A stretch of DNA of 62,263 nucleotides from Candidatus Enterousia sp. (GTDB lineage: Bacteria; Pseudomonadota; Alphaproteobacteria; Rs-D84): the NCBI GenBank assembly GCA_045649345.1, contig JAZRPS010000011.1:1-62263 (forward strand), given 5' to 3'. Numbering within the stretch: position 1 is the first letter of the stretch; every line of letters begins with the position of its first letter. The notes beneath the pieces are model-generated. The model had not been told where the DNA came from. It made no database searches and saw only the letters and a program-made list of their open reading frames with translations. Positions 6,644 through 59,420 of the stretch are shown one piece after another. The translations under genes were made by a program, and so were the position numbers.

Positions 6644-6726
6644 GTGGGCGGTTCCGACAACTCATGTACGTTTTGTACACTATGTTGTCGGAACCCTTCC
6701 ACATCTAAATCATTCTATTTAATTTT
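6644..6726. repeat. Palindromic repeat element, copy A (hairpin plus conserved tail)
   Basis: GGTTCCGACAAC (6650-6661) pairs with GTTGTCGGAACC (6684-6695) around the loop CTCATGTACGTTTTGTACACTAT. Tail ATCTAAATCATTCTATTTAATTTT (6703-6726) is identical to 24116-24139. Confidence 0.8.
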
Positions 6727-14975: not shown

Positions 14976-15006
14976 AAAAATACACCCCATATGGGGTGTG
15001 TTTTTA
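14976..15006. terminator. Bidirectional terminator hairpin between convergent tsaE and ftsA-rpe
   Basis: ACACCCCATATGGGGTGT palindrome flanked by an A-run and a T-run. Confidence 0.65.
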
Positions 15007-16788
15007 TGTGTTTTGAATATCTTTTTTTAGCAGGCTGTGTACTGCCAATGGAAAGTCTGGGGACTTTGCAAGGTATGAACCGCTGACCAACATGTCGGCA
15101 CCTGCGTCCCAGCATAATTTTGCAGTTCTGTCATTTATGCCACCGTCAACAGATATGACGAATTTTAATCCATATTTTTTGCGTGTTGCCACCAGAACAG
15201 ATATTTTATGCAGGGCGTCAGGTTCAAAACTTTGACCGGCAGCACCCGGTTCGACAGACATTATCATAACCTCATCAATATCGCGCAGGACAGGTTTTAA
15301 TATAGATACAGATGAGCCTGGGTTTATGGCGATTCCGACGCGACGACCAGCGTTCTTTACGATTTTTATTGCAGCACGCAAACCAGATGTATTGGTTGAC
15401 AGTATGACCGTGTCTGCGCCGGCAGCGACAGCGTCAGTTGCCCAAATGTTCGGACTTTCGGTCATTAAATGTACATGTAGATGTGCGTTTGTGTGTGTGC
15501 GGATTGTTTTTAATTCTTCGATACTGCCGGCGATTCTGTCGACATAAAAACCGTCCATAATATCGACGTGTATCATTGATATGCCACCAGATTTAAATAG
15601 GCTATATGTTTCTGGGCGTCGCATGTCAAAGCACAATGTGCTGGGTAATATTGGAATAAATCGGGTGTGATGTTTTGGTTTGCGCTTAAATAATTTATGA
15701 ACCCAGTTGGTGCGCTTTTGCCAACGGTTGTGGCGCGCAATAAATGATTCGCGTTTTGGTTGCAGACCGTGCCATATATAGTCAGACAGGGCGCGAACGG
15801 TTGCGTCGGTGGGTATTGCGTCGGTCAATACGGCAAATGCGTTTTCGATAAAGTCACGTAATCCTTCGATTTCAGCGCCACCGCCTGTTAAAATTATTTT
15901 TGTTGGGTGATATTTTGTAAATGGTTTCAGGCATTGGTCTTTGATTTGTCCAATAATATCAACCAAGATTGGTATAATAATATCGTTTACGTCGGCACGT
16001 GAAAAATCATAGGCGGTATCTGCCGGTGTAAAACGATCCATTTCTTTGGGAATCAGGGATGCGACCGCACGCTTTATTTGGTCGGCAGATTCAACAGATA
16101 TATTTAATTTTTCAGAAATTGCGTTCGTTATATCTGTGCCACCCAGTTTTATTTTTGTGTGAAAAACAGGACCGCGATCTGTCCAAATTGATGCGCTGGT
16201 AAACCCTGCGCCAAAATCGATAAATAGTGTTGGTTGCTTTTCTGTGCGATAAATTGCGTTTTGTATAAATTGTGGGTCATAAAAGGCGGTCGGTTGAATA
16301 AATGCGCCACGCATATGTTCATAAATTTTATCAATCCCACTGCGTGAATAAAATATTGCACCAAAAACAGATGCCAGTTGATGGTCAATGTGTCCAATTG
16401 GTGACAACATATTGCGCGCATGTGGCGTATCATATCGTAATGGAACAATGTGCATTGGGAAATAACCATCGGGTGGTGTTATGCGTGAAATTTGCGCACG
16501 TATGTCAGATGTGGTAATTTTATGTTCGCCAGACCATGTATCGTGTTGGATGGACATTTCAAATGCAGATGGACCAAAATTCCCGGTTATAAAGGCGTTA
16601 TCAAAGTGTGAACCAATTTGTTTTTCTAGTTCGTCAACAACAGATTTTATTGCAAATACGGTATCAAAGCTGTCCATGCTAAAAAAAGCAGAATGGTCAA
16701 TTTGGGCGTTGCGTATGCGATGCGCAATGCCACGTACACCATACGTGCCAATGTCAAGACACAAAAAAGATGAATCGTATAAGTTCAT
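15004..16788 (-). CDS. ftsA: FtsA cell-division protein fused in frame to a ribulose-phosphate 3-epimerase domain
   Basis: Residues 1-350 align by eye with FtsA (LDIGTYGV, IDFGAGFTSASIW, LGGTDIT, LTGGGAEIEGL). Residues 354-372 form a basic amphipathic stretch. Residues 377-594 carry Rpe motifs (IHVDIMDG, HVHLM, MSVEPGAAGQSF, VDGGI). Confidence 0.8.
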   Translation of the reverse strand: MNLYDSSFLCLDIGTYGVRGIAHRIRNAQIDHSAFFSMDSFDTVFAIKSVVDELEKQIGSHFDNAFITGNFGPSAFEMSIQHDTWSGEHKITTSDIRAQISRITPPDGYFPMHIVPLRYDTPHARNMLSPIGHIDHQLASVFGAIFYSRSGIDKIYEHMRGAFIQPTAFYDPQFIQNAIYRTEKQPTLFIDFGAGFTSASIWTDRGPVFHTKIKLGGTDITNAISEKLNISVESADQIKRAVASLIPKEMDRFTPADTAYDFSRADVNDIIIPILVDIIGQIKDQCLKPFTKYHPTKIILTGGGAEIEGLRDFIENAFAVLTDAIPTDATVRALSDYIWHGLQPKRESFIARHNRWQKRTNWVHKLFKRKPKHHTRFIPILPSTLCFDMRRPETYSLFKSGGISMIHVDIMDGFYVDRIAGSIEELKTIRTHTNAHLHVHLMTESPNIWATDAVAAGADTVILSTNTSGLRAAIKIVKNAGRRVGIAINPGSSVSILKPVLRDIDEVMIMSVEPGAAGQSFEPDALHKISVLVATRKKYGLKFVISVDGGINDRTAKLCWDAGADMLVSGSYLAKSPDFPLAVHSLLKKDIQNT

Positions 16789-17982: not shown

Positions 17983-18306
17983 ATGGCAATCACCGTTCAA
18001 CAATTTATTAAGTTGGCAAATTATTATAATCAAACTGCGATAATTATGTCCGCGATTTGTGTGCAAAAGGGCGGTATCGCAATGGAAAACTATGTTGGGC
18101 GTTTCTATGGCGCAGATCTACTAGAATTCGTTGTGGAATATGGACGTCGCTTGCAGGCACAAGATAAAAATTTGCAACCAGAAATAGTTGCGTTGATTAA
18201 TCGTTTTAGTGCACAATATGAACGGGTCAAGGATTTGGTGACGCCAACGCAAAAACCGTTCCATGAAATGACACTGGAAGAATTTGAAAAGGTTATGAAT
18301 ATTTAA
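17983..18306 (+). CDS. Hypothetical small cytoplasmic protein (107 aa), first gene of the co-directional array
   Basis: AAAGGA RBS ahead of ATG 17983. 19-bp gap to the next gene. No signal peptide. Confidence 0.45.
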   Translation: MAITVQQFIKLANYYNQTAIIMSAICVQKGGIAMENYVGRFYGADLLEFVVEYGRRLQAQDKNLQPEIVALINRFSAQYERVKDLVTPTQKPFHEMTLEEFEKVMNI

Positions 18307-18325: not shown

Positions 18326-19666
18326 ATGAAATTTGTTCAAAAATATTTTTTGGGGGTTATGGTTTTTGGGGTGGCTTTGTTTTGTGTCGGTTGTGTGCAA
18401 AAAAAGCGACAACAGGTACCATTGTATGATAATATAACTGTTGTTGATGAATTGGTGATTGATTCTAATTCTGTGCCAATCTTTCCAAAAAAGGCAGCGC
18501 TGACAACAGATACGGCGCGCAGATTTTCGATTGAATTGCCAAAACGGTGTGAAGTAGACTGGGATAATCAGAATGTTGTTTCTGTTGTTCCATCTGAAAA
18601 AATAGAAATAATCCGTTTGGATACTGGTGATAAATTGCCTGAATTGCAGGTGTCTGATTATGAGTTTAAAGATTTAACTGTGAAACGTGCATTAGATAAA
18701 TTGCTGGACGGGACAGATGTTTCTGTGGTCGAAGATGAAAGTCTGTACGAGAAGATTTCAGGTACAATTTCATCGGGTGAATTATCGGATGCGGTTGAAC
18801 TGATGACGAAAATGGGACGCGTTTATTATTCGTATGATGAAGGTACGGGCGAATTGCATTTGGCACATCGTGGAAAATGGCTGATAAAAATGCCGCAAAA
18901 TGAAACGATTATTATGGCGCTGTTAGACGCGATGCATGGCGCAGATATGCGAAACCTGTTGGTCGATTGGGCGGATAAAACTGTTGTGTTCGAAGGTAAT
19001 TATCAGACAGAACGTGAAGTGGCAAAGATAATCGCTGATATTTCTGGTAAAAAATATATGTTGGCGTGGGATATTGATGTGTATCGTGTGTATCCGCGTA
19101 CAGATAATCCAATTGTTTGGATGAACCTGTTGCCGGCGTTTGGTGAAAAAAATATAAAAATGTCAATCCCTGGGGTTGTTGGGCGTGCGCTGGTTGTGGG
19201 TCCGGAAATTAATACAAAAACATTGCAGGAATTCTTGGGGCAACAGGCAAATGTTGTCTTGGTATCACAGGGTACGTTTGCAATCCCAAATGGGTGGCAA
19301 TCGCGATTTGATATTGGTCAGTGTGGTCGCGAAGAACGTCTGGAGACAGATTTAATTATTGGTGCAACGGGTAAATATGCGGACTTTGCGGGGCGTAAAA
19401 AGATTGATGCGAAAATTGTTTTGCGTACGTCAAATGGGGAATTGTCGTCCTTTAATATTCCGTCCACGGTTGGCGATAACTATGTAATTGTGGGTATTCC
19501 AACGCATTCGTTTGTGACGACGCCGGAAACATTGGTGTCGCCGTTTGCAGAATTGGTTGTATTTATGTCGCCGCGTATAATTTCAATTGTTGATGGACCG
19601 ACGGGTCATGATGATAGTATGACGGATTTGGTTGGTGATGCATTGCGTGATTTTTTAAGTGAATAA
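18326..19666 (+). CDS. Secretin-like outer-membrane lipoprotein (446 aa), tentative
   Basis: Lipobox (ALFCVGCVQ). N-domain-like segment (FKDLTVKRALDKLLDGTDVSVV). C-terminal region resembles a secretin domain (ANVVLVSQGTFAIPNGWQSRFDIGQ, VIVGIP, ELVVFMSPRII). Confidence 0.45.
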   Translation: MKFVQKYFLGVMVFGVALFCVGCVQKKRQQVPLYDNITVVDELVIDSNSVPIFPKKAALTTDTARRFSIELPKRCEVDWDNQNVVSVVPSEKIEIIRLDTGDKLPELQVSDYEFKDLTVKRALDKLLDGTDVSVVEDESLYEKISGTISSGELSDAVELMTKMGRVYYSYDEGTGELHLAHRGKWLIKMPQNETIIMALLDAMHGADMRNLLVDWADKTVVFEGNYQTEREVAKIIADISGKKYMLAWDIDVYRVYPRTDNPIVWMNLLPAFGEKNIKMSIPGVVGRALVVGPEINTKTLQEFLGQQANVVLVSQGTFAIPNGWQSRFDIGQCGREERLETDLIIGATGKYADFAGRKKIDAKIVLRTSNGELSSFNIPSTVGDNYVIVGIPTHSFVTTPETLVSPFAELVVFMSPRIISIVDGPTGHDDSMTDLVGDALRDFLSE

Positions 19667-19681
19667 TAGGGTGGGTTAATT

Positions 19682-20935
19682 ATGTTTTCAAAACTGGAAA
19701 GAAAGATTGCGTTTAGATATTTGGGGGCAAAAAAGCGTGGATTTGGTTCGGTGATTTCATGGGTGTCGCTGATTGGTATTATGCTGGGGGTGGCGACACT
19801 GATTGTGGTTATGTCGGTTATGGGTGGTTTTCATGATACGTTGTTGGGACGTATTGTTGGAATGAATGGACATGTGGTTGTTTATCACCAAGATGGTGCG
19901 ATTTCTGATTTTGATTTCTTGATTGATAAAATGAAGCAGAACAAGGTTGTCGCCCAACGTGCAACATCAATTGTGCCAATTGCCGAAGGGCAGGTTATGG
20001 CAACCGCCAATGGTAAAAATACAGGTGCAATGATACGTGGGATTCGAATGAACGATTTGGCGGCAAAAACGCAAACAGGAACACGTATATATGGCAAAAG
20101 TTTGTCTGAAATCAAAGATGGCGAATTGGTTGGTGGGTCGTCTTTGACACGTGCATTGAATGTGACAATGGGGGACAAGATTTCGTTGGTGTCTGCCAAT
20201 GGTGCAACGCCAACGCCATTTGGTTCAATGCCACGAATTATGTCGTATCCGGTGATGAGTTCGTTCTTTATGGGTATGTATGAATATGATTCTGGGTATA
20301 TCTTTATGCCGTTGGAAACCGCGCAAAAGTATTTAAATATTGGTAATGGTGTGACGCATATCGATTTGTTCTTGGACAATCCAGAAGATACAACAGCAGT
20401 GGTGGAAAGTTTGTCGCGACTGTTGCCAGAAGGTTTTGTTGTTCGTGATTGGCGTGATTTGAATCGTGGCTTTGTCGGGGCATTACAGGTTGAATCAAAT
20501 GTGATGTTTTTAATCTTGATGTTAATTGTTATTGTCGCGGCGTTTAACATTGTTTCCAGTCTGGTTATGTTGGTAAAGGATAAAAATAAAGACATCGCGG
20601 TTTTGCGTACGTTTGGTGTGTCGCGTAAATCAATGATGAAGATATTTATTTTGTCGGGGACATCAATCGGTGTGATTGGTGCGTTCTTTGGGACGATATT
20701 GGGCGTTCTGATTGCGATATATGTTGAACCGATTCGTCAGTTTTTCCAATGGTTGACCGGGCGTGATTTGTTTCCGTCAGAATTGTATTATTTGTCTGAA
20801 TTGCCATCAAAGTTGGTCATAGGCGAGGTTGTTGGTATTGCCCTGATTGCGATTTTATTGGCGTTCTTGGCAACATTGTATCCGGCATGGAAGGCGGCAA
20901 AAACCGACCCGGTAGAGGTGTTAAGGAATGAATAA
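19682..20935 (+). CDS. lolC: Lipoprotein-releasing ABC transporter permease (LolC/LolE family)
   Basis: FRYLGAKKRGFGSVISWVSLIGIMLGVATLIVVMSVMGGF N-terminus, large periplasmic loop, C-terminal FtsX-type TM bundle ending DPVEVLRNE. Confidence 0.85.
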   Translation: MFSKLERKIAFRYLGAKKRGFGSVISWVSLIGIMLGVATLIVVMSVMGGFHDTLLGRIVGMNGHVVVYHQDGAISDFDFLIDKMKQNKVVAQRATSIVPIAEGQVMATANGKNTGAMIRGIRMNDLAAKTQTGTRIYGKSLSEIKDGELVGGSSLTRALNVTMGDKISLVSANGATPTPFGSMPRIMSYPVMSSFFMGMYEYDSGYIFMPLETAQKYLNIGNGVTHIDLFLDNPEDTTAVVESLSRLLPEGFVVRDWRDLNRGFVGALQVESNVMFLILMLIVIVAAFNIVSSLVMLVKDKNKDIAVLRTFGVSRKSMMKIFILSGTSIGVIGAFFGTILGVLIAIYVEPIRQFFQWLTGRDLFPSELYYLSELPSKLVIGEVVGIALIAILLAFLATLYPAWKAAKTDPVEVLRNE

Positions 20936-20941
20936 AAGAGT

Positions 20942-21670
20942 GTGAGCAAAATGGCGAAGATTTTGGATTCTTTATCAAAGGTAAATCGTGGCGATGTGGT
21001 TATGTCGGTGCGTGATATAAAGCGGACGTTTGTCGAAGGGGGGCAGCCATTACATATTTTGCGTGGCGGTGGTTTTGATTTGCATCGTGGTGAAATTATT
21101 GCCTTGGTTGGTGCGTCTGGGTCTGGGAAATCAACACTGTTGCAGTGTGTTGGGCTGTTGGACAGACCCAGTGGGGGCAGTATTATGATTGGTGGTGCGC
21201 CGATACAGAAAATGGACGAAGATATGCGTACGCAAATTCGTCGTAAAAAAATAGGATTTGTTTATCAGCGTCATAATTTATTGTCTGATTTTACCGCAAT
21301 TGAAAATGTTATGTTGCCGATGTTGGCGAATGGCGTGGCCGAAGATGCAGCACGCGCGCGCGCAATCAAACTGTTGCGTGCGGCAAATGTTGCGCATCGT
21401 GCGTCGCACCTGCCGGGGGAAATGAGTGGCGGTGAACAACAGCGTACCGCTGTTGCGCGTGCGTTGGCTAATAATCCGGATATCTTGTTGGCGGACGAAC
21501 CAACGGGCAGTTTGGACCCAATGCATGCAGGGGCGGTGTTTGATTTGCTGATGGATTTGGTGCGTAAAAACAAAATGGCAATGCTGTTTGTGACGCATGA
21601 TATGAATTTGGCATCGCGTGCAGACCGCAGAATAACAATTAATAATGGTATTGTTGAATCAATGCACTGA
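20942..21670 (+). CDS. lolD: Lipoprotein-releasing ABC transporter ATP-binding protein
   Basis: Walker A GASGSGKST, signature MSGGEQQR, Walker B LLADEPTGSLD. GTG at 20942 or ATG at 20951. Confidence 0.85.
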   Translation: MSKMAKILDSLSKVNRGDVVMSVRDIKRTFVEGGQPLHILRGGGFDLHRGEIIALVGASGSGKSTLLQCVGLLDRPSGGSIMIGGAPIQKMDEDMRTQIRRKKIGFVYQRHNLLSDFTAIENVMLPMLANGVAEDAARARAIKLLRAANVAHRASHLPGEMSGGEQQRTAVARALANNPDILLADEPTGSLDPMHAGAVFDLLMDLVRKNKMAMLFVTHDMNLASRADRRITINNGIVESMH

Positions 21671-21722: not shown

Positions 21723-22265
21723 ATGAAAATGAAAAAGTCAGAGGGAAAATTTGTAAAAGTTTTATGTTATGTAGCAACGTTTGTTGTCGGGGCAGGTATT
21801 GGTTTCTTTGCGTCGGAAATAACGGCAAAAAAAGGTATGCAATTATCTGATGCACAGTGTGCGGTCGTTCAAGAAAAAATTATCGAAAATGCAAAGTGTT
21901 ATAGTGCGTTTTGTACAGAACACTTAAAGGAACTGTATGCGATTTACCGTAATGATTGTGCAGGTCGTATTATTCCAGAAGAAATATATGAAATGCGGTC
22001 TTGTGCACAGATGGAAAAAATTATAAAAAAGCGTTTCGATGCGTCCAAGGAAACAAGTTCGTCTTATCGTGATCATATCAGCCTGGCCAGCTATTTTGTA
22101 AAATTGGCGGTGCATGCATGTCCGGAACATGTTGAAATGTACAATAATCTGGCGTGGCGTGAAATTGAAATTGTGGGGGCGTTGACATCTGTGGAATATA
22201 TGGATATGGCAGATAAACAAGAATTAAACCGTGTGTTGAAAACACTGGGTGAAAATAAGAAATAA
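21723..22265 (+). CDS. Membrane-anchored hypothetical protein with a Cys-containing helical module (180 aa)
   Basis: N-terminal TM anchor. One copy of the ~60-aa module C-x2-ME-x2-I...ACPEH-x3-Y-x3-A-x-REIEIVGAL, shared with the next gene. Confidence 0.55.
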   Translation: MKMKKSEGKFVKVLCYVATFVVGAGIGFFASEITAKKGMQLSDAQCAVVQEKIIENAKCYSAFCTEHLKELYAIYRNDCAGRIIPEEIYEMRSCAQMEKIIKKRFDASKETSSSYRDHISLASYFVKLAVHACPEHVEMYNNLAWREIEIVGALTSVEYMDMADKQELNRVLKTLGENKK

Positions 22266-22289: not shown

Positions 22290-23060
22290 ATGAAAAAAGC
22301 AGAAAAGCAATATAGGGTTGTGCATAGTCGTTCACAAAAAATCTGGGGGGCGTTGGCACTGGCGGGATTATTTGCATGTGGATTGTTGGTTGGTTGGGGT
22401 ATCAATGAAAAACGCAGTGCGCCACAACAACTGGAAATGGAACAGATTGCAAAGCCTGTCCCCCAGGTTGATGGTGATGTGAAACCGGTCACAGAACAAA
22501 ATTCTGAACCAAAAGAAACGTGCCAGATTATTGAAGACCTGTTATTGGAACGTCTGGCGCCAGTTGATAGTCAAGACGTTGAAGCGCATGAATTTAATAT
22601 TAATGTTTATGAAAAGTTGGTAATGAATGGCTGTTCAGAAAATCAAATGAAATATCACAAGGCGGCACAACGAGAACGTGAAATTGTAAACGCGTTGCAA
22701 CAGACAAACAGTTCACAACAAACATGTGAACAGATTGAAACATTGTTGACGCAACAATTGCCGTATGCAAATGAAGATTCGGAAGCGCGTATAGAACGTG
22801 CAAAAATCTATGCAAATTTATCTGAACGTGGTTGTCCAGAAAATAGTGCGAAATATGTTGAATTGGCAAAACAAGAACTGGAAATCGCACGTGCGTTAGA
22901 AGATGATGAATTTGATAATGATGAAACAATCGAAGTTGTTGAAACATACAAGCGTTTGAATATGCAGGCGGCAGCCGAAGAAATTTTTGAAACGGCGAAA
23001 AAACTGACTAACCCGGCGATTGATTTTATCTTGGAAGTTGAAAAAATAATTAATGAATAA
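22290..23060 (+). CDS. Membrane-anchored hypothetical protein with two copies of the same module (256 aa)
   Basis: TM anchor (IWGALALAGLFACGLLVGWGI). Modules TCQIIEDLL...GCSENQMKYHKAAQREREIVNAL and TCEQIETLL...GCPENSAKYVELAKQELEIARAL. Confidence 0.55.
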   Translation: MKKAEKQYRVVHSRSQKIWGALALAGLFACGLLVGWGINEKRSAPQQLEMEQIAKPVPQVDGDVKPVTEQNSEPKETCQIIEDLLLERLAPVDSQDVEAHEFNINVYEKLVMNGCSENQMKYHKAAQREREIVNALQQTNSSQQTCEQIETLLTQQLPYANEDSEARIERAKIYANLSERGCPENSAKYVELAKQELEIARALEDDEFDNDETIEVVETYKRLNMQAAAEEIFETAKKLTNPAIDFILEVEKIINE

Positions 23061-23077: not shown

Positions 23078-23677
23078 ATGAAATTCTGGGTGATTTTATT
23101 CGGATTGGTTTTAACAACAGGTGCATTTGCCACAGATGACACAACCGAAGATGTTGTCGAAGAAGAGGTTGTTGAAGAAGAGGCAGAAGCGTCTGTTGTA
23201 GAGCGCATATCGTGTACAGATATTCAGGCGCAGATAACAGAATTGAGTGCCATAGAAGAACCGGATGAAGAAACGCAAGAAGAATTGGCAAATCTGAAAG
23301 CAACCCAACGTTCGAAATGTATGCGCAGTGCAGGAAAGCGACGTGCCGCCGTGGGACGCAAAGCGCTGATTGCAGCATCAGAAGCGTCGACGACCACAGA
23401 AGAAGTTTTGGTTGATGAGAGTGTAGAGAAAGAACAGCCAAAACAAGAGGCTGAGAAAGAAGAAGTCGTTAAGGAGGTTGTTGTTGAAGAACAAACCGTG
23501 TCCGAATTAACCCCGGAACAGGTTCAGGCAAATTTGGACGCAGGACTGTGTGCAGATGGTGCAAAACCGAATCGTTTTGGTTGTTGCGGCGATGAAATTT
23601 TTAAAGATATGGGGAATGCTGTTTTTGCATGTTGTCCAAAATCTGGGGGTGATTGTTTGCCACCAATAGGAAAATAG
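23078..23677 (+). CDS. Secreted acidic protein with a C-terminal cysteine-knot-like domain (199 aa)
   Basis: Signal peptide MKFWVILFGLVLTTGAFA, Glu/Val-rich low-complexity body, C-terminal CADGAKPNRFGCCGDEIFKDMGNAVFACCPKSGGDCLPP. Confidence 0.6.
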   Translation: MKFWVILFGLVLTTGAFATDDTTEDVVEEEVVEEEAEASVVERISCTDIQAQITELSAIEEPDEETQEELANLKATQRSKCMRSAGKRRAAVGRKALIAASEASTTTEEVLVDESVEKEQPKQEAEKEEVVKEVVVEEQTVSELTPEQVQANLDAGLCADGAKPNRFGCCGDEIFKDMGNAVFACCPKSGGDCLPPIGK

Positions 23678-23687
23678 GGTGTTAATA

Positions 23688-23933
23688 ATGAAAAAGTGTG
23701 TTAGTTCAACAACGGCGATAATTATATCTTTTTTTATAGGTTTTGGTTTGGGTATCTTGACCTGGGCGAATCGTGACGCAATGTCCGCGTCATCCGCCAC
23801 CTGTGCCGATGGTTCGCGACCAGACAAGCATGGTTGTTGTGCTGGTGAGGTTTACACAGATATGGGGGATTTAGGGTTTAATTGTTGTCCAGGGGATAGC
23901 GAGGATAGTGACTGTTTTCCACCCCTAAAATAA
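23688..23933 (+). CDS. Small exported protein carrying the same C-terminal cysteine domain (81 aa)
   Basis: TM/signal segment then CADGSRPDKHGCCAGEVYTDMGDLGFNCCPGDSEDSDCFPP. ATG 23688 preferred over GTG 23679. Confidence 0.55.
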   Translation: MKKCVSSTTAIIISFFIGFGLGILTWANRDAMSASSATCADGSRPDKHGCCAGEVYTDMGDLGFNCCPGDSEDSDCFPPLK

Positions 23934-24034
23934 AATCTAATGGTATATCTAAAGCGGGTTAGCAATGGCTCATGTACGTTTGTGTACACTACGCCATTTT
24001 TAACCCGTTTATCTATACCATTATCTTTTATTTT
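23927..24034. repeat. Palindromic ~108-bp MITE/REP-like element, copy B1
   Basis: Arms of ~43 bp (AAAATAAAATCTAATGGTATATCTAAAGCGGGTTAGCAATGGC and its imperfect reverse complement) around the loop TCATGTACGTTTGTGTACACTAC. Near-identical to 55163-55272. The stop codon of the upstream gene lies in the left arm. Confidence 0.85.
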
Positions 24035-24057
24035 TAAAAAATTATAATAATTCATCT

Positions 24058-24139
24058 AAAAACAAATCGGGCATCTCATGTAGCGTTTGTACACTACGAC
24101 GCCCGATTTGTTTTTATCTAAATCATTCTATTTAATTTT
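24058..24139. repeat. Palindromic repeat element, copy B2 (hairpin plus conserved tail)
   Basis: AAAAACAAATCGGGC / GCCCGATTTGTTTTT arms around ATCTCATGTAGCGTTTGTACACTACGAC. Tail ATCTAAATCATTCTATTTAATTTT is identical to copy A. Confidence 0.8.
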
Positions 24140-24329: not shown

Positions 24330-24383
24330 TTGATTTTGATTCCGGTCGTGTACGCTTTGTACACTCGCCTTTATCAAAATCGT
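24330..24383. repeat. Palindromic repeat element, copy B3 (short form, between two tRNAs)
   Basis: GATTTTGAT / ATCAAAATC arms around GTCGTGTACGCTTTGTACACTCG, which shares the conserved GTGTAC...GTACAC core. Confidence 0.6.
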
Positions 24384-55166: not shown

Positions 55167-55272
55167 AATAAAATCTAATGGCATATCTAAAGTGGGTTGG
55201 CAATGGCTCATGTACGTTTGTGTACACTACGCCATTTCCACCCCGTTTATCTATACCATTATCTTTTATTTT
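55163..55272. repeat. Palindromic ~108-bp MITE/REP-like element, copy C
   Basis: Aligns base for base with 23926-24034 apart from about 8 substitutions by eye. Same loop TCATGTACGTTTGTGTACACTAC. The ftsK stop codon lies at its left edge. Confidence 0.85.
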
Positions 55273-55284
55273 ATCCCACTGCAA

Positions 55285-55294
55285 GGGGGGGGGG
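55285..55294 (+). repeat. Homopolymeric G10 tract upstream of the first cysteine-rich protein gene
   Basis: Ten consecutive G in an otherwise AT-rich intergenic region, 66 nt before ATG 55361. Confidence 0.9.
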
Positions 55295-55360
55295 CGATTA
55301 TTTTTATTTTTGTCTTTTATTCTTTTTGTTTTTATGTTAAAATTAACGGTAAGAGAGAAA

Positions 55361-57784
55361 ATGAAGCGCTTTATTCATGTTTTTTTATTAATGTTTTGTG
55401 TAATGCCAGGGTTGGCATTGGCACAGGTTGCAACCACCGTAGGCAGTAATTTGACCGCCTGGAATGGTAATATGGGGGCAACAAATAATAATGAATGGAA
55501 TCAAATGATGAATCCGCGTGGTGGCGGGGGGGCTGGTGCAAATGTGCCTGCGGCGGATTTTGGTAATTGTAATGCATTGATATTGCGCTGTGCGCAACCA
55601 AAATGTTCGGGGTGTACAACAATGGATGTGGCGCGCCCGATTGTTGCAGGTTGTGTGAACAGTAATGCGACATGTAAAAAACATGGTGATGCATTGATTG
55701 ATTATATAACGGCACAAATGGTGTCAACCGCAAATTCCAGGGCGCAAGAGGCGCAAATACAGGCCCAGGCGGCAGCTGCCCAGGCAGCGGCAGCGGAAAG
55801 CAATGCACAAATGCAACAAATGCAAATGCAGATGCAACAGATGCAGGCGCAAATGGCGGAACAAAATCAACAGCAAATGCAACAAATGCAGGCGGCGCTG
55901 GAACAACAAAAAGCAATGACAGAGGCAGCACTGGCAGAAGCCGCCGCCGCAAAGCAAGATAATGCCACTTCATCAAGTGTGTCTGCTGGTGGGGCTGATA
56001 CCGCGGTTTCTGGTGATGGGTCTGTGCGTGGTGGACTAACCGCGGCGCAACAACAGGCCGCCGCCGCCGGGGTTGAGGCAGATATTTTAGTGCGTGAACA
56101 GATTTCTGGTCAAATTTTAACCAAGATAGAAGCGGCAGAAATCGCGTTAAAAAAACTGAATACGCAAATGCAAGAGACGTTTAGATATGCCGGTTGTGAT
56201 GTGTTTGGTAATAACTGTGCCGGACCAAAGCGTGTAAAAAAATTCAAGGAAATGGCATTGGATTATTTCCGACCATATGATGAAGTGGTTGAAAATGCGT
56301 ATGAAGCATTGGAAATGGCATTGGCGGTTGGTGTTGATGTGTCTGACGTTATTATGATGTTAAGTGGTGCATGCAATCGTTGGGGTAAGTTTTTGTGTAA
56401 TATGCCAAAGACCAAAGATAATAAGAGTGTACCGTATCCCAGATATAATTCTGAGAATTGTCGTGGTGAAAAGTCTGTAAAGGGTGCGTTGGCGAGTGCG
56501 AAATCTGGGCATGAAACATTTGAAACAACATTGCGTGGTGGGTTTGAATGTTCGCCTGGTATGGTGGTGCCACCCCAGGACGATGTTCAGTGTACATTGG
56601 TTTCGTTCGTTGGTGGCGAAGGCGAAGGTGATGAAGTCTTGCGTGAATGGTTGCTGGAAGGGGAAGAGGGTGATGGTATGACCCGTGTTGGTTGTGCGAC
56701 ATCTGCGTTGGATACATTGCCGATGTTTGGACGTCGCAGCAGTCGTCGTGATTCCAATTCAACATTGGATTTGGATACACTGGAACGTATCTTGGTTCAG
56801 GACGCGCCAGAGGTGGTTGGTCAAAACAGGTTTATGCGTTCGAATTCAGAATCCGCAGAAGTATCACGTTTAAAATACTGTGCAATGACCCCACGTGGTT
56901 ATGAAACATTGCGTGGCGTGTTAAGCAGCAAGAAATTACCGAAACAGATTTGTGTGCCGTATGATACGTTGGCACGTAATTATCAAACCCAGGGTTCATT
57001 GTCATCTGATTACACTGGCACCAGTGGGCTGATGGCCAGTGGTGTTATGCCGGCGGATGTGAATAAGTATACTTGTGATACTTATTTTACAAGTGGGAAA
57101 AGTGGGGTGCCACCGGCGTGTAATGGTCGATGGGTTGGTTCTGAAACAGAGGGGTCATGTCAATATAACGCAACAAATTGTGTGCTTGAATACGATTCTT
57201 TTAGTAAAATAAAAGCGTTGCGTGAATTGTCGTTGGACGAAAAAAAGCAACGGGGTTGTCAGTCAAGCGAAAGTGGTGGCACATGGAATGCGTCTGCAAA
57301 AAAATGTGATTGTCCATCGGGTAAAACAGTACGTGAAAATACTTCGTACCAGTGTGTCAGTGCAGAAGCTATTACGGACGCTGATTGTAAAAATTTTGCC
57401 AAAGAAATGGGGGCTGATGATAATAATGCCAGGGTTAATGGTGATGGTACATGTGTTGCGAAAAATTACAATTTGATTAATTACAGTTATTGTGATGTGC
57501 GTAAATGCAATGGTGACGGCGTCACAAAACGCAAAATATCTGAAGGTGGTTCTTATAATTATAATGTCTGCTGTTGGTGTAGCAAAGGTGGTGGTTATGC
57601 ATTTAATCCAGACAGCGGTTCATGTAAGGATTCCGGGGGGGGTAGTGTGTCTTCGGCTATGTTTACGAATGCTATTGGATCAAATCCTTTTAATTTGCCA
57701 TTATTAAATAATGGTACAGGTTCGAATGCTGGGGGGCTGAGCAATTTAAAATTGGGCGTTGATTTTATGGGGAAAACATATTAA
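55361..57784 (+). CDS. Large secreted cysteine-rich protein, unknown family (807 aa)
   Basis: Signal peptide MKRFIHVFLLMFCVMPGLALA, FGNCNALILRCAQPKC module, Gln/Ala/Met-rich helical stretch, many Cys through to the C-terminus. GAGAGAAA RBS. Confidence 0.7.
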   Translation: MKRFIHVFLLMFCVMPGLALAQVATTVGSNLTAWNGNMGATNNNEWNQMMNPRGGGGAGANVPAADFGNCNALILRCAQPKCSGCTTMDVARPIVAGCVNSNATCKKHGDALIDYITAQMVSTANSRAQEAQIQAQAAAAQAAAAESNAQMQQMQMQMQQMQAQMAEQNQQQMQQMQAALEQQKAMTEAALAEAAAAKQDNATSSSVSAGGADTAVSGDGSVRGGLTAAQQQAAAAGVEADILVREQISGQILTKIEAAEIALKKLNTQMQETFRYAGCDVFGNNCAGPKRVKKFKEMALDYFRPYDEVVENAYEALEMALAVGVDVSDVIMMLSGACNRWGKFLCNMPKTKDNKSVPYPRYNSENCRGEKSVKGALASAKSGHETFETTLRGGFECSPGMVVPPQDDVQCTLVSFVGGEGEGDEVLREWLLEGEEGDGMTRVGCATSALDTLPMFGRRSSRRDSNSTLDLDTLERILVQDAPEVVGQNRFMRSNSESAEVSRLKYCAMTPRGYETLRGVLSSKKLPKQICVPYDTLARNYQTQGSLSSDYTGTSGLMASGVMPADVNKYTCDTYFTSGKSGVPPACNGRWVGSETEGSCQYNATNCVLEYDSFSKIKALRELSLDEKKQRGCQSSESGGTWNASAKKCDCPSGKTVRENTSYQCVSAEAITDADCKNFAKEMGADDNNARVNGDGTCVAKNYNLINYSYCDVRKCNGDGVTKRKISEGGSYNYNVCCWCSKGGGYAFNPDSGSCKDSGGGSVSSAMFTNAIGSNPFNLPLLNNGTGSNAGGLSNLKLGVDFMGKTY

Positions 57785-59219: not shown

Positions 59220-59420
59220 AATAAGAATTATATATTTTTGTGTGACTGTTTTGCAATTTGACAAAAAGCCTATGAAAAACAATTGTGCCGTATAAATAAA
59301 CGTGTTTACATGACGCAAAAAAATTGATATAATTAAGTAAATAGAAGGTGTATTTTGCATGGGGCAAATATGCCGAAAGGTTGGGTTTCTGGGCGTTTCC
59401 CAGAACACAGGGAGAGTTTT

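What the first reader, a model, noticed from the sequence alone, without database searches (positions are those of the whole stretch)
23546..23930. Shared ~43-aa seven-cysteine C-terminal domain in two consecutive small secreted proteins
The last ~43 residues of both proteins align without gaps until the final loop:
- 199-aa protein: CADGAKPNRFGCCGDEIFKDMGNAVFACCPKSGGDCLPP
- 81-aa protein: CADGSRPDKHGCCAGEVYTDMGDLGFNCCPGDSEDSDCFPP

The consensus is C-A-D-G-x-[KR]-P-x3-G-C-C-x2-E-x3-D-M-G-x3-F-x-C-C-P-x(4,6)-D-C-x-P-P. It contains two CC doublets, a pattern more typical of small toxins or knottin-like peptides than of bacterial housekeeping proteins.

One copy sits on a long acidic Glu/Val-rich stalk. 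The other sits directly on a membrane or signal segment. The genes are 1 bp apart by the ORF track.
Basis: seen in the sequence. Interest (0 to 1): 0.65.

Follow-up and report, generated by a model that had tools for sequence, protein, structure and literature searches.

The report
New six-cysteine envelope domain family
Two neighbouring small genes of a tiny-genome gut bacterium (Candidatus Enterousia lineage) end in the same 40-residue, six-cysteine domain, an undescribed module that this lineage also attaches to a type IV secretion protein and other envelope proteins, so it looks like a cell-envelope building block rather than a toxin.

Summary
ORF 23078-23677 (199 aa, cleavable signal peptide) and ORF 23688-23933 (81 aa, N-terminal membrane helix) share a C-terminal ~42-aa domain (BLASTP E=2e-14). 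It has six cysteines, not seven: C-x10-CC-x14-CC-x6/8-C-x-P-P.

The refutation condition fails.
- The domain occurs in 268 protein clusters (50% identity), and 136 species-level genomes encode a relative of the long protein.
- All are gut Alphaproteobacteria of order Rs-D84 / Ca. Enterousia, with genomes under 1 Mb.
- Both genes are under purifying selection.

There are two subtypes.
- Type A sits on the secreted long protein.
- Type B sits on the short anchored protein.
- Of 80 species, 53 have adjacent A and B genes (median gap 10 nt), 11 have B and A fused in one protein, and 16 have A only.
- The pair always closes a fixed cluster: p107, secretin-like lipoprotein, lolCE, lolD, p256, long, short.

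Type B also ends VirB10-like type IV secretion proteins, 700-810-aa single-pass membrane proteins and a lipoprotein.

There are no Pfam, NCBIfam or PDB relatives. Granulin and knottin similarity is not significant.

My best reading is a disulfide-stabilised, acidic periplasmic docking module. Function is inferred, not shown. The toxin reading is not supported.

The parts
23078..23677 (+). Long protein (199 aa). It has a Sec signal peptide, an acidic disordered segment, a Cys-stapled helical hairpin, an acidic linker and the type A six-Cys domain.
   Evidence: ORF. 167 homologous clusters with E<=1e-3. AF2 model. dN/dS 0.17-0.47 against close relatives, median 0.33.
23078..23131 (+). Signal peptide of the long protein (MKFWVILFGLVLTTGAFA | TDD).
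   Evidence: The uncharged run has a median of 16 residues and ends A-[FY]-A across 44 homologues. The cleavage site is inferred from the A-x-A rule, not measured.
23201..23344 (+). N-terminal helical hairpin module of the long protein, with invariant Cys46 and Cys81.
   Evidence: Invariant columns R43, C46, L73, R78, C81 and R88. AF2 helices 46-57 and 64-101, pLDDT about 80.
23549..23674 (+). Type A six-cysteine domain (CADGAKPNRFGCCGDEIFKDMGNAVFACCPKSGGDCLPPIGK).
   Evidence: AF2 beta-hairpin 173-177/183-187, pLDDT 78-86.
23688..23933 (+). Short protein (81 aa from the ATG; 84 aa from the GTG at 23679). It has an N-terminal membrane helix and the type B six-Cys domain.
   Evidence: 56 homologous clusters, nearly all 72-83 aa. 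dN/dS 0.016-0.028 against close relatives, median 0.29. AF2 mean pLDDT 82.
23697..23768 (+). Hydrophobic helix of the short protein. It is a signal-anchor or an unusually long signal peptide ending T-W-A | NRD.
   Evidence: AF2 helix 4-27, pLDDT up to 97. The uncharged run has a median of 24 residues in 51 homologues and ends [HYW]-A-[NS]-R-D.
23802..23930 (+). Type B six-cysteine domain (CADGSRPDKHGCCAGEVYTDMGDLGFNCCPGDSEDSDCFPPLK).
   Evidence: AF2 beta-hairpin 54-58/64-68. Its closest relatives are the C-termini of VirB10-like and bitopic proteins, 64-69% identity.
22290..23060 (+). p256: a membrane-anchored periplasmic helical protein with Cys-pair modules. It lies directly upstream and is present in all 80 species loci.
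   Evidence: No Pfam, NCBIfam or PDB relatives.
21723..22265 (+). p180: an extra paralogue of p256.
   Evidence: BLASTP E=1e-7 to p256. Present in only some loci.
19682..21670 (+). lolCE-type permease (19682-20935) and lolD-type ATPase (20942-21670) of the same conserved cluster.
   Evidence: TIGR02212 lolCE scores 420.6 bits against a cutoff of 362. LolD is the best hit at 242 bits, below its cutoff of 308. Pfam gives FtsX, MacB_PCD and ABC_tran.
18326..19666 (+). lipo446: a secretin-related lipoprotein and the most conserved gene of the cluster.
   Evidence: Lipobox ...FCVGC. 74-95% identity to the window protein in 28 other species loci. tblastn E=9e-8 to a plasmid secretin inside a type IV pilus-like gene set. 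Sub-threshold STN hits in 22 of 29 members.
17983..18306 (+). p107: a small cytoplasmic protein and the first gene of the conserved cluster.
   Evidence: No family hit.

Best explanation
WHAT IT IS (well supported). The two genes encode members of an undescribed extracytoplasmic domain family. The family has been found only in reduced-genome gut Alphaproteobacteria of order Rs-D84 (Candidatus Enterousia and relatives). The domain is about 40 residues, nearly always at the extreme C-terminus, with six invariant cysteines (C-x10-CC-x14-CC-x6-C-[FLY]-P-P) around a beta-hairpin.

It comes in two old paralogous subtypes.
- Type A (...PN[KR][FY]GCCGDEIFKD[LM]GN.VFACCPK...) ends a Sec-secreted periplasmic protein. 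That protein also carries a disulfide-stapled helical hairpin and a disordered acidic linker.
- Type B (...PDK.GCC.GEVYTDMGDLGFNCCPE...) has net charge about -7. It ends a small protein held by one N-terminal membrane helix.

The two genes are co-oriented and almost contiguous (10 nt apart). They form the last two genes of a fixed cluster: p107, secretin-like lipoprotein, lolCE, lolD, p256, long, short.

HOW IT MOST LIKELY WORKS (inferred, not shown). After export the six cysteines form three disulfides, giving a rigid, strongly acidic knob on a flexible stalk. This knob is a protein-protein docking module of the cell envelope.
- Type B knobs sit at the periplasmic end of inner-membrane-anchored proteins: the short protein, a 700-810-aa bitopic protein with a ~200-residue linker, and the VirB10-like subunit of a type IV secretion system.
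- They bind a common periplasmic or outer-membrane partner. The best candidate is the lysine-bearing type A knob of the long protein, since A and B are adjacent genes or fused in one chain. Another candidate is the secretin-like lipoprotein of the same cluster.
- The result would tie inner-membrane components to the outer-membrane layer.
For: Reality and conservation:
- Pairwise E=2e-14.
- 56 short-form and 167 long-form clusters.
- 268 clusters at 50% identity in an exhaustive HMM scan.
- 136 GTDB species genomes encode a relative of the long protein.
- dN/dS is well below 1 for both genes.
- A contig from a run labelled metagenomic RNA-Seq bridges the long/short junction (weak evidence).

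Extracytoplasmic location and disulfides:
- Wherever the N-terminus of a carrier protein was inspected, the domain lies downstream of a signal peptide, a TM helix or a lipobox.
- All six Cys are invariant.
- Every exported protein checked in the window has an even cysteine count: 2, 6, 4, 8, 6, 44, 0.
- AF2 gives a confident compact hairpin domain, pLDDT about 80-87.

A and B work together:
- 53 of 80 species have A and B in adjacent genes, median gap 10 nt.
- 11 of 80 have B and A fused in one ORF.
- One protein has B-B-A.

Docking-module reading:
- The same B domain ends VirB10/TrbI proteins inside virB8-virB9-virB10 operons.
- It also ends bitopic proteins with long Pro/Glu linkers and a lipoprotein.
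- B has net charge -6.7. A has -2.3 and carries conserved Lys/Arg where B has Thr/Glu/Gly.

Importance:
- The cluster order is invariant in 80 of 80 species loci.
- These genomes are under 1 Mb (PMC12306168).
Against: - No experiment or structure shows binding, disulfides or localisation.
- AF2 output gave no coordinates, so disulfide connectivity and any A-B interface are unknown.
- 16 of 80 species loci have A only, and at least 9 of these are not explained by contig ends. B at this locus is therefore dispensable or supplied by other B-bearing proteins.
- The synteny with lolCE/lolD and the secretin-like gene may reflect shared ancestry within one order rather than shared function.
- These bacteria are reported to lack respiratory chains. 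How periplasmic disulfides would be oxidised is open, and no Dsb gene was looked for.
- A strongly acidic, Cys-rich domain is equally compatible with metal or Ca2+ binding.
Confidence: 0.4

Rival explanations
1. Metal- or calcium-binding module. The six cysteines and/or the many conserved Asp/Glu coordinate a metal (Zn, Cu, Fe, Ca2+). The proteins would then act in periplasmic metal buffering or delivery, or use Ca2+ to hold their fold as LDL-receptor class A modules do.
For: Six invariant Cys plus conserved D/E at seven or more positions. Type B has net charge -6.7 in about 39 residues. The hosts are reported as anaerobic fermenters without respiratory chains, so oxidative folding is not guaranteed.
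Against: - There are no CxxC or CxC motifs typical of metal sites; vicinal CC pairs are more typical of disulfide ladders.
- Cysteine counts are even in all exported proteins checked.
- There are no Pfam hits to metallothionein, Ldl_recept_a or any other family.
- Attachment to VirB10 and to long-stalked membrane proteins is hard to explain by metal handling.
Confidence: 0.2
2. C-terminal sorting or secretion tag. The domain would be recognised in the periplasm by an export or attachment machine, for example the secretin-like lipoprotein with the LolCE/LolD-type ABC transporter encoded upstream. Cargo would then be delivered to the outer membrane or cell surface, as T9SS C-terminal domains do.
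For: - The last copy ends a median of 0 residues (maximum 23) from the C-terminus in 150 representative proteins of unrelated architectures.
- Conservation runs to the last residues (-C-F-P-P-[ILM]-[KR]).
- The gene pair is fixed next to a secretin-related lipoprotein and an ABC transporter.
Against: - Internal B copies exist in the fused B-A and B-B-A proteins.
- Carriers include inner-membrane-anchored proteins and a structural T4SS subunit that should not be released.
- The short protein would consist of little besides the tag.
- LolCE passes the equivalog cutoff for the ordinary lipoprotein-release permease.
Confidence: 0.12
3. Secreted toxin, bacteriocin or host-directed effector peptide. 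The mature knottin-like or granulin-like peptides would be released and act on other cells.
For: The peptide is small, disulfide-rich and has CC doublets. The top Foldseek hits, though insignificant, are spider knottin toxins, granulins and defensins. The hosts are presumed obligate symbionts or parasites. An ABC transporter gene is nearby.
Against: - Foldseek E>=2.8 with probability <=0.13.
- hhalign against granulin A gives probability 2.7%.
- There is no immunity gene, no modification gene and no double-glycine leader.
- The short form appears membrane-anchored, with a 24-residue uncharged helix.
- The domain is also part of VirB10-like and other membrane proteins.
- It sits at a single, syntenic core-genome locus in 80 of 80 species with strong purifying selection, whereas toxin loci are usually variable.
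Confidence: 0.08
4. Intermolecular disulfide cross-linking module. The CC pairs would form disulfides between envelope proteins, building a covalently linked outer-envelope lattice. This is how the chlamydial cysteine-rich proteins OmcA and OmcB work, and they too are encoded by adjacent small and large genes.
For: A small and a larger Cys-rich exported protein lie in tandem. Many other Cys-rich exported proteins exist in the same genome, for example ORF 59355-62237 with 44 Cys. The genomes are reduced and host-dependent.
Against: The even, invariant six-Cys pattern and a confident monomeric AF2 fold fit intradomain disulfides. Rs-D84 genomes keep rod-shape and peptidoglycan transpeptidase genes. 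There is no similarity to OmcA or OmcB.
Confidence: 0.1

Closest known systems
Granulin / epithelin module (Pfam PF00396)
   Same: It is a small, extracytoplasmic, disulfide-rich module built on beta-hairpins with vicinal CC doublets. Local motifs look alike: C-x-D-G...CC...G-aromatic-x-CCP...C, compared with granulin A CPDGYTCC...GAWGCCP. Granulin A and zebrafish granulin AaE appear among the Foldseek hits.
   Different: Granulin has 12 Cys with four CC doublets and different loop lengths (CC-x8-CC against CC-x14-CC here). There is no Pfam hit. hhalign probability is 2.7% and Foldseek E is about 5-6. The resemblance is one of style, not demonstrable homology.
Inhibitor cystine-knot (knottin) toxins, e.g. 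psalmotoxin-1 and mu-agatoxin
   Same: They have about 35-40 residues, six Cys and a beta-hairpin core. They are the top Foldseek hits.
   Different: Hits are insignificant (E 2.8-8, probability <=0.13, rmsd 5-6 A). Knottins have one central CC doublet (C..C..CC..C..C), not two. The proteins here are anchored or are parts of envelope proteins, not free venom-type peptides.
LDL-receptor class A (complement-type) modules
   Same: They have about 40 residues, six Cys forming three disulfides and a cluster of conserved acidic residues. They act as ligand-docking knobs on stalks. This is a 'works like' analogy from general knowledge.
   Different: The Cys spacing differs, with no CC doublets and no D-x-S-D-E calcium cage motif. 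There is no Pfam Ldl_recept_a hit. The analogy is untested.
VirB10 / TrbI (PF03743) with lineage-specific decorations, e.g. Helicobacter CagY
   Same: In Rs-D84 the type B domain is the C-terminal end of VirB10-like proteins inside virB8-virB9-virB10 operons. VirB10 homologues carrying extra Cys-containing modules have a precedent in CagY (general knowledge).
   Different: The window proteins have no TrbI domain and are not next to T4SS genes. They share only the terminal module.
Chlamydial cysteine-rich envelope proteins OmcA/OmcB
   Same: They are tandem genes for a small and a larger Cys-rich exported envelope protein in an obligately host-associated bacterium with a reduced genome (general knowledge).
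   Different: There is no sequence similarity. OmcA/OmcB have many more Cys and form intermolecular cross-links. Here six invariant Cys sit in a compact domain.
T9SS C-terminal domain and other C-terminal sorting domains
   Same: It is a folded domain at the extreme C-terminus shared by unrelated exported proteins of one lineage.
   Different: It is half the size, Cys-rich, and also occurs internally in fused proteins. No cognate sortase-like gene was identified and no cleavage is known.

Membership tests
Granulin (PF00396) | Significant match to the granulin profile or sequence | tested here: not met
   No Pfam hit at E<=0.1. hhalign of domain alignment A4 against human granulin A gives probability 2.7% over 9 columns. 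The granulin A sequence was verified as PDB 2jye.
Granulin (PF00396) | 12-Cys pattern C-x5-6-C-x5-CC-x8-CC-x6-CC-x5-CC-x4-C-x5-6-C | tested here: not met
   The pattern here is C-x10-CC-x14-CC-x6, with six Cys, in 92 of 129 domains. Variants differ only in the first or last loop.
Inhibitor cystine knot (knottin) | Structural similarity to solved knottins | tested here: not met
   The best Foldseek PDB hit is psalmotoxin, with E=2.8, probability 0.13, TM 0.24/0.48 and rmsd 6.3 A.
Inhibitor cystine knot (knottin) | Knotted I-IV, II-V, III-VI disulfide connectivity | not testable with these tools
All Cys are invariant, so covariation gives no information.
LDL-receptor class A module (PF00057) | Profile match and the D-x-S-D-E calcium cage | tested here: not met
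   There is no Pfam hit and the motif is absent from alignments A2, A3 and A4.
Sec-exported protein (long form) | N-terminal n-h-c signal peptide with an A-x-A cleavage motif | tested here: met
   The sequence is MKFWVILFGLVLTTGAFA|TDD. The uncharged run has a median of 16 residues and ends A-[FY]-A in 44 homologues. No SignalP-type predictor was available, and cleavage itself was not measured.
Signal-anchored (type II) membrane protein (short form) | A single N-terminal TM helix of about 20 residues or more that is not removed | tested here: inconclusive
   AF2 gives helix 4-27 and the uncharged run has a median of 24 residues. However, most members end it with [ATVL]-x-A followed by [NS]-R-D, a possible signal-peptidase site.
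VirB10/TrbI (PF03743) | TrbI domain present in the window proteins | tested here: not met
   Pfam finds none in the 199-aa or 84-aa proteins. tblastn of VirB8, VirB9 and VirB10 against the window hits only the 40-residue terminal domain.
LolCE lipoprotein-release permease (TIGR02212), neighbour gene 19682-20935 | Score above the equivalog cutoff | tested here: met
   420.6 bits against a cutoff of 362.45.
LolD (TIGR02211), neighbour gene 20942-21670 | Score above the equivalog cutoff | tested here: inconclusive
   It is the best hit but scores 242.3 bits, below the cutoff of 307.75.
Secretin family, neighbour gene 18326-19666 | N0/STN domain and C-terminal secretin core (PF00263) | tested here: inconclusive
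   tblastn gives E=9e-8 to the N-terminal half of an annotated plasmid secretin. STN hits fall below threshold in 22 of 29 orthologues, best E 7.6e-4. There is no PF00263 hit and no PDB sequence hit.

The most novel reading that the evidence does not exclude
The seven-gene cluster (p107, secretin-like lipoprotein, LolCE/LolD-type ABC transporter, p256, long, short) may encode a previously unknown trans-envelope machine of Rs-D84 bacteria. In this reading the six-Cys domain is the common plug. Through it, inner-membrane-anchored proteins, including the VirB10 subunit of the type IV secretion system, would be coupled to one outer-membrane hub. Alternatively, cargo would be handed to a secretin energised by a MacB-type transporter. 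Either case would be a new way of wiring envelope complexes in bacteria that live off partner cells.
Probability: 0.12. Interest if true: 0.8.

Novelty: new variant of a known kind. Interest (0 to 1): 0.5.

Why it matters
Rs-D84 / Candidatus Enterousia bacteria are widespread in ruminant, bird and human guts. Their genomes are below 1 Mb and they are thought to depend on partner cells, yet nothing is known about their envelope or how they make contact (PMC12306168).

A domain that this lineage keeps in nearly every species is a concrete handle on that biology. It is reused on its type IV secretion VirB10, on long-stalked membrane proteins, and in a fixed operon with a secretin-like lipoprotein and LolCD.

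For protein science it adds an unannotated ~40-residue six-Cys fold with two CC doublets. It has no Pfam, NCBIfam or PDB relative and is suitable for definition as a new domain family.

It also argues that these anaerobes run an active periplasmic disulfide system.

Tried and rejected
1. Pfam and NCBIfam scans of both proteins and of p180, p256 and p107 gave no family.
2. PDB sequence searches with profiles of the short form, lipo446 and p256 gave no hits.
3. Foldseek against the PDB with both AF2 models gave nothing with E<2.
4. The granulin lead, prompted by the motif resemblance CxDG..CC..GxxCCP, was tested by hhalign and rejected as homology.
5. I tested whether the N-terminal hairpin of the long protein is homologous to the p256 modules. 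hhalign aligns the Cys pair, but probability is 2% and E=0.024, so homology is not established.
6. A search for T4SS genes or further domain copies in the window found none.
7. Expression evidence is thin. Only one run labelled RNA held a 196-nt contig over the long/short junction, and DNA carry-over cannot be excluded.
8. A literature search for Rs-D84 plus type IV secretion found no paper.
9. The RiPP or bacteriocin-precursor idea was rejected. There is no leader motif, no modification or immunity gene, and the domain is part of large structural proteins.
Full report
**1. The observation**

The + strand carries two ORFs. One is 23078-23677 (199 aa). The other is 23679-23933 (84 aa from a GTG start), or 81 aa from the ATG at 23688. 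All homologues begin MKK, so the ATG is the likely start.

Their last 42 residues align at 48% identity with one 2-residue gap, BLASTP E=2e-14. A tblastn of either domain against all six frames of the window finds only these two copies.

The domain contains six cysteines (C, CC, CC, C), not seven. The gap between the genes is 1 nt for the GTG start and 10 nt for the ATG start.

**2. Is it conserved, and are the genes real?**

- A profile of the two domains retrieved 56 protein clusters, nearly all 72-83 aa. They share one design: MKK, about 24 uncharged residues, [HYW]-A-[NS]-R-D, a ~10-residue spacer, then C.DG..PDK.GCC.GEVYTDMGDLGFNCCPE.GGDCFPP[ILM][KR] ending the protein.
- The 199-aa protein retrieved 167 clusters of 174-265 aa. 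They have a signal peptide ending A-[FY]-A and a variable acidic stretch. A conserved module follows (VVER.SC.DI.A.I.ELSA...L..LK..YR..C.RSA..RR) with two invariant Cys, then a variable linker, then ...NLDAGLCADG.KPNKFGCCGDEIFKDLGN.VFACCPKSGGDCFPPIK.
- An exhaustive HMM scan of 1.84 billion representative proteins with the domain alone found 268 clusters at E<=1e-3.
- A scan of one genome per GTDB species found 136 genomes encoding a relative of the long protein. The 80 loci kept are all MAGs labelled Candidatus Enterousia, Alphaproteobacteria, proteobacterium or Rickettsiales bacterium, from animal and human guts.
- Pairwise dN/dS for the short gene is 0.016 and 0.028 against the two closest relatives, with a median of 0.29 over 367 pairs. 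For the long gene it is 0.47 and 0.17, with a median of 0.33 over 504 pairs.
- A 196-nt contig from a bovine-gut run labelled metagenomic RNA-Seq spans the long/short junction. This is weak evidence.

Neither is met.

**3. The host**

Candidatus Enterousia and the order Rs-D84 are uncultured gut Alphaproteobacteria with genomes of about 0.75-1.0 Mb. They lack respiratory chains and most biosynthesis, and are proposed to be obligate symbionts or parasites of other cells (PMC12306168).

The window (41.7% GC) is ordinary chromosome. It carries ftsQ, ftsA, uvrB, mutL, secD, ftsK and tRNA genes.

**4. Two subtypes and their linkage**

The long proteins carry type A and the short proteins type B. 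The subtypes differ at fixed positions: FKD[LM]G..VFACCPK against YTDMGD.GFNCCPE.

In the 80 species loci:
- 53 have A and B in adjacent co-oriented genes. Over 54 loci (the 53 plus the window) the median gap is 10 nt, and 44 have a gap of 25 nt or less.
- 11 have B and A fused in one ORF, always in the order B then A.
- 16 have A only, and at least 9 of these are not explained by a contig end.
- One representative protein has B-B-A.

Adjacent genes in most species and fusion in others is the classic sign that two modules act together.

**5. Genomic context**

In all 80 species loci the gene order is the same:
1. p107
2. A 446-aa lipoprotein (lipo446)
3. lolCE
4. lolD
5. p256, in one or two copies
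6. The long gene
7. The short gene, where present

What lies downstream varies: ftsQ/ftsA, secB or tRNAs.

- LolCE passes the NCBIfam equivalog cutoff (420.6 against 362). LolD is the best hit but scores below its cutoff.
- The 446-aa lipoprotein is 74-95% identical to the window protein in 28 other species loci. It has sub-threshold STN hits in 22 of 29 orthologues. It also has a tblastn match (E=9e-8) to the N-terminal half of an annotated secretin in a plasmid type IV pilus-like gene set. I call it secretin-related with moderate confidence.
- p256 and its window-specific paralogue p180 are membrane-anchored helical proteins with Cys pairs spaced about 35 residues apart. A relation to the hairpin of the long protein is suggested but not significant.

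**6. Other carriers of the domain**

Among the 150 best representative clusters, the last domain copy ends a median of 0 residues (maximum 23) from the C-terminus. Besides about 60 long-type and about 30 short-type clusters there are:

- (a) About 20 VirB10/TrbI-like proteins or fragments of 630-852 aa (PF03743, E about 1e-16 to 1e-18). These sit in chromosomal virB8-virB9-virB10 operons, one of them next to secE-nusG-rplK.
- (b) About 17 bitopic proteins of 700-810 aa. They have a cytoplasmic coiled-coil region, one TM helix, a ~200-residue Pro/Glu-rich linker and then the domain. In one contig the gene lies beside gcrA and a prepilin-peptidase gene.
- (c) A lipoprotein-type carrier, and small secreted proteins with one Cys-stapled hairpin plus B.

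All of these carry type B. None of them is in the window.

**7. Structure**

- AF2 on the short form (56-sequence alignment) gives mean pLDDT 82, a TM helix at 4-27 and a beta-hairpin at 54-58/64-68 flanked by the two CC doublets.
- The long form gives a signal helix, disordered acidic segments (pLDDT<50), a helical hairpin at 46-57/64-101 carrying Cys46 and Cys81, a short helix at 146-154 and the same hairpin domain at pLDDT 78-86.
- Foldseek against the PDB gives no hit below E=2. The top names are knottin toxins, granulins and a defensin.
- hhalign against human granulin A gives probability 2.7%.

**8. Chemistry**

- The dominant Cys spacing is C-x10-CC-x14-CC-x6 (92 of 129 domains).
- Type B has a mean net charge of -6.7 (range -9 to -5). 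Type A has -2.3, with conserved Lys/Arg after PN, in FKD and after CCP.
- Every exported protein I checked in the window has an even number of Cys: 2, 6, 4, 8, 6, 44, 0. By the parity argument for disulfide-forming bacteria (general knowledge) this points to disulfides rather than free thiols.

**9. Interpretation**

Shown:
- The domain family is real and found only in this lineage.
- It is extracytoplasmic and mostly C-terminal.
- It has two subtypes that are genetically coupled.
- It is reused on a T4SS VirB10, on long-stalked inner-membrane proteins and on a lipoprotein.
- It lies in a cluster whose gene order is fixed in all 80 loci of very small genomes.

Inferred:
- Three intradomain disulfides make a rigid acidic knob.
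- The knob is a docking module that links inner-membrane-anchored components to a periplasmic or outer-membrane partner. Candidates are the type A knob and the secretin-like lipoprotein.

Rivals, in decreasing order of my confidence: metal or Ca2+ binding, a C-terminal sorting tag for a secretin/ABC machine, intermolecular disulfide cross-linking, and a released toxin or effector.

The toxin reading is the least compatible. It is contradicted by membrane anchoring, by presence on structural proteins, and by the single syntenic core locus under purifying selection.

**10. Novelty and score**

No Pfam, NCBIfam or PDB relative exists, and no paper in the library connects Rs-D84 with type IV secretion. 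It is a new domain family of a known general kind, the small disulfide-rich extracytoplasmic module.

Interest is moderate. It is a solid, definable new family with an intriguing link to T4SS and to a secretin/LolCD cluster in an unstudied symbiont lineage, but it has no demonstrated function.

Noticed in passing
window 23938-24023 and 24057-24116 (also 6663-6680 and 24347-24364): Two long hairpins lie directly downstream of the short gene (dG -38.2 and -28.3 kcal/mol, z -9.3 and -7.9). Their stems differ but they share an apical motif, CATGTA..GTTTGT(G)TACAC. The motif recurs at two other intergenic sites (3 matches against 0.19 expected). In one metagenome the region has about 20-fold higher contig depth and several alternative joints. 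It looks like a small repeated, variable palindromic element, possibly a terminator.
   Followed up: partly
window 18326-19666: A 446-aa lipoprotein is 74-95% identical to the window protein in 28 other Rs-D84 species loci, far more conserved than its neighbours. It has a weak STN signal and a tblastn match to a plasmid secretin. It may be a compact lipidated secretin encoded directly upstream of lolCE/lolD.
   Followed up: partly
window 15004-16788 (- strand): A single 594-aa ORF combines an FtsA-like N-terminal part (residues about 42-319) with a ribulose-phosphate 3-epimerase domain (about 380-585). The same fusion is called in related contigs (592 aa, FtsA plus Ribul_P_3_epim). It is an unusual cell-division/pentose-phosphate fusion.
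   Followed up: no
window 59355-62237: A roughly 940-960-aa exported protein has no Pfam hit. It has an N-terminal hydrophobic segment, a long SRATT/NARATT-type repeat region and a large region with 44 cysteines. It is another disulfide-rich envelope or surface protein, unrelated to the six-Cys domain.
   Followed up: partly
window 21723-22265 and 22290-23060: p180 and p256 are paralogues (E=1e-7). They are membrane-anchored helical proteins built from modules with Cys pairs about 35 residues apart, and p256 has an extremely conserved C-terminal tail (...TIEVVETYKRLNMQAAAEEIFETAKKLTNPAIDFILEVEKIINE). No family is known.
   Followed up: partly
L087 2683-5235; L092 7717-12436: Rs-D84 genomes carry a chromosomal virB8-virB9(CagX)-virB10 operon, in one contig next to secE-nusG-rplKAJL-rpoB. 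Its VirB10-like protein has a ~200-residue Cys-containing C-terminal extension ending in the type B domain.
   Followed up: partly
L088 10001-12397: A 798-aa bitopic protein ends in the type B domain. It has a cytoplasmic coiled coil, one TM helix and a ~200-aa Pro/Glu linker. It is encoded next to gcrA and a prepilin peptidase (Peptidase_A24) gene, followed by several unannotated genes.
   Followed up: no
protein P0316 (109 aa): A divergent relative carries two copies of only the second half of the domain (..GGF[GA]CCP.G..VCYP[PT]I). This suggests the CCP...C-x-P-P half can exist as its own unit.
   Followed up: no
window 55178-57784: An 868-aa ORF directly after ftsK has no significant family hit.
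   Followed up: no
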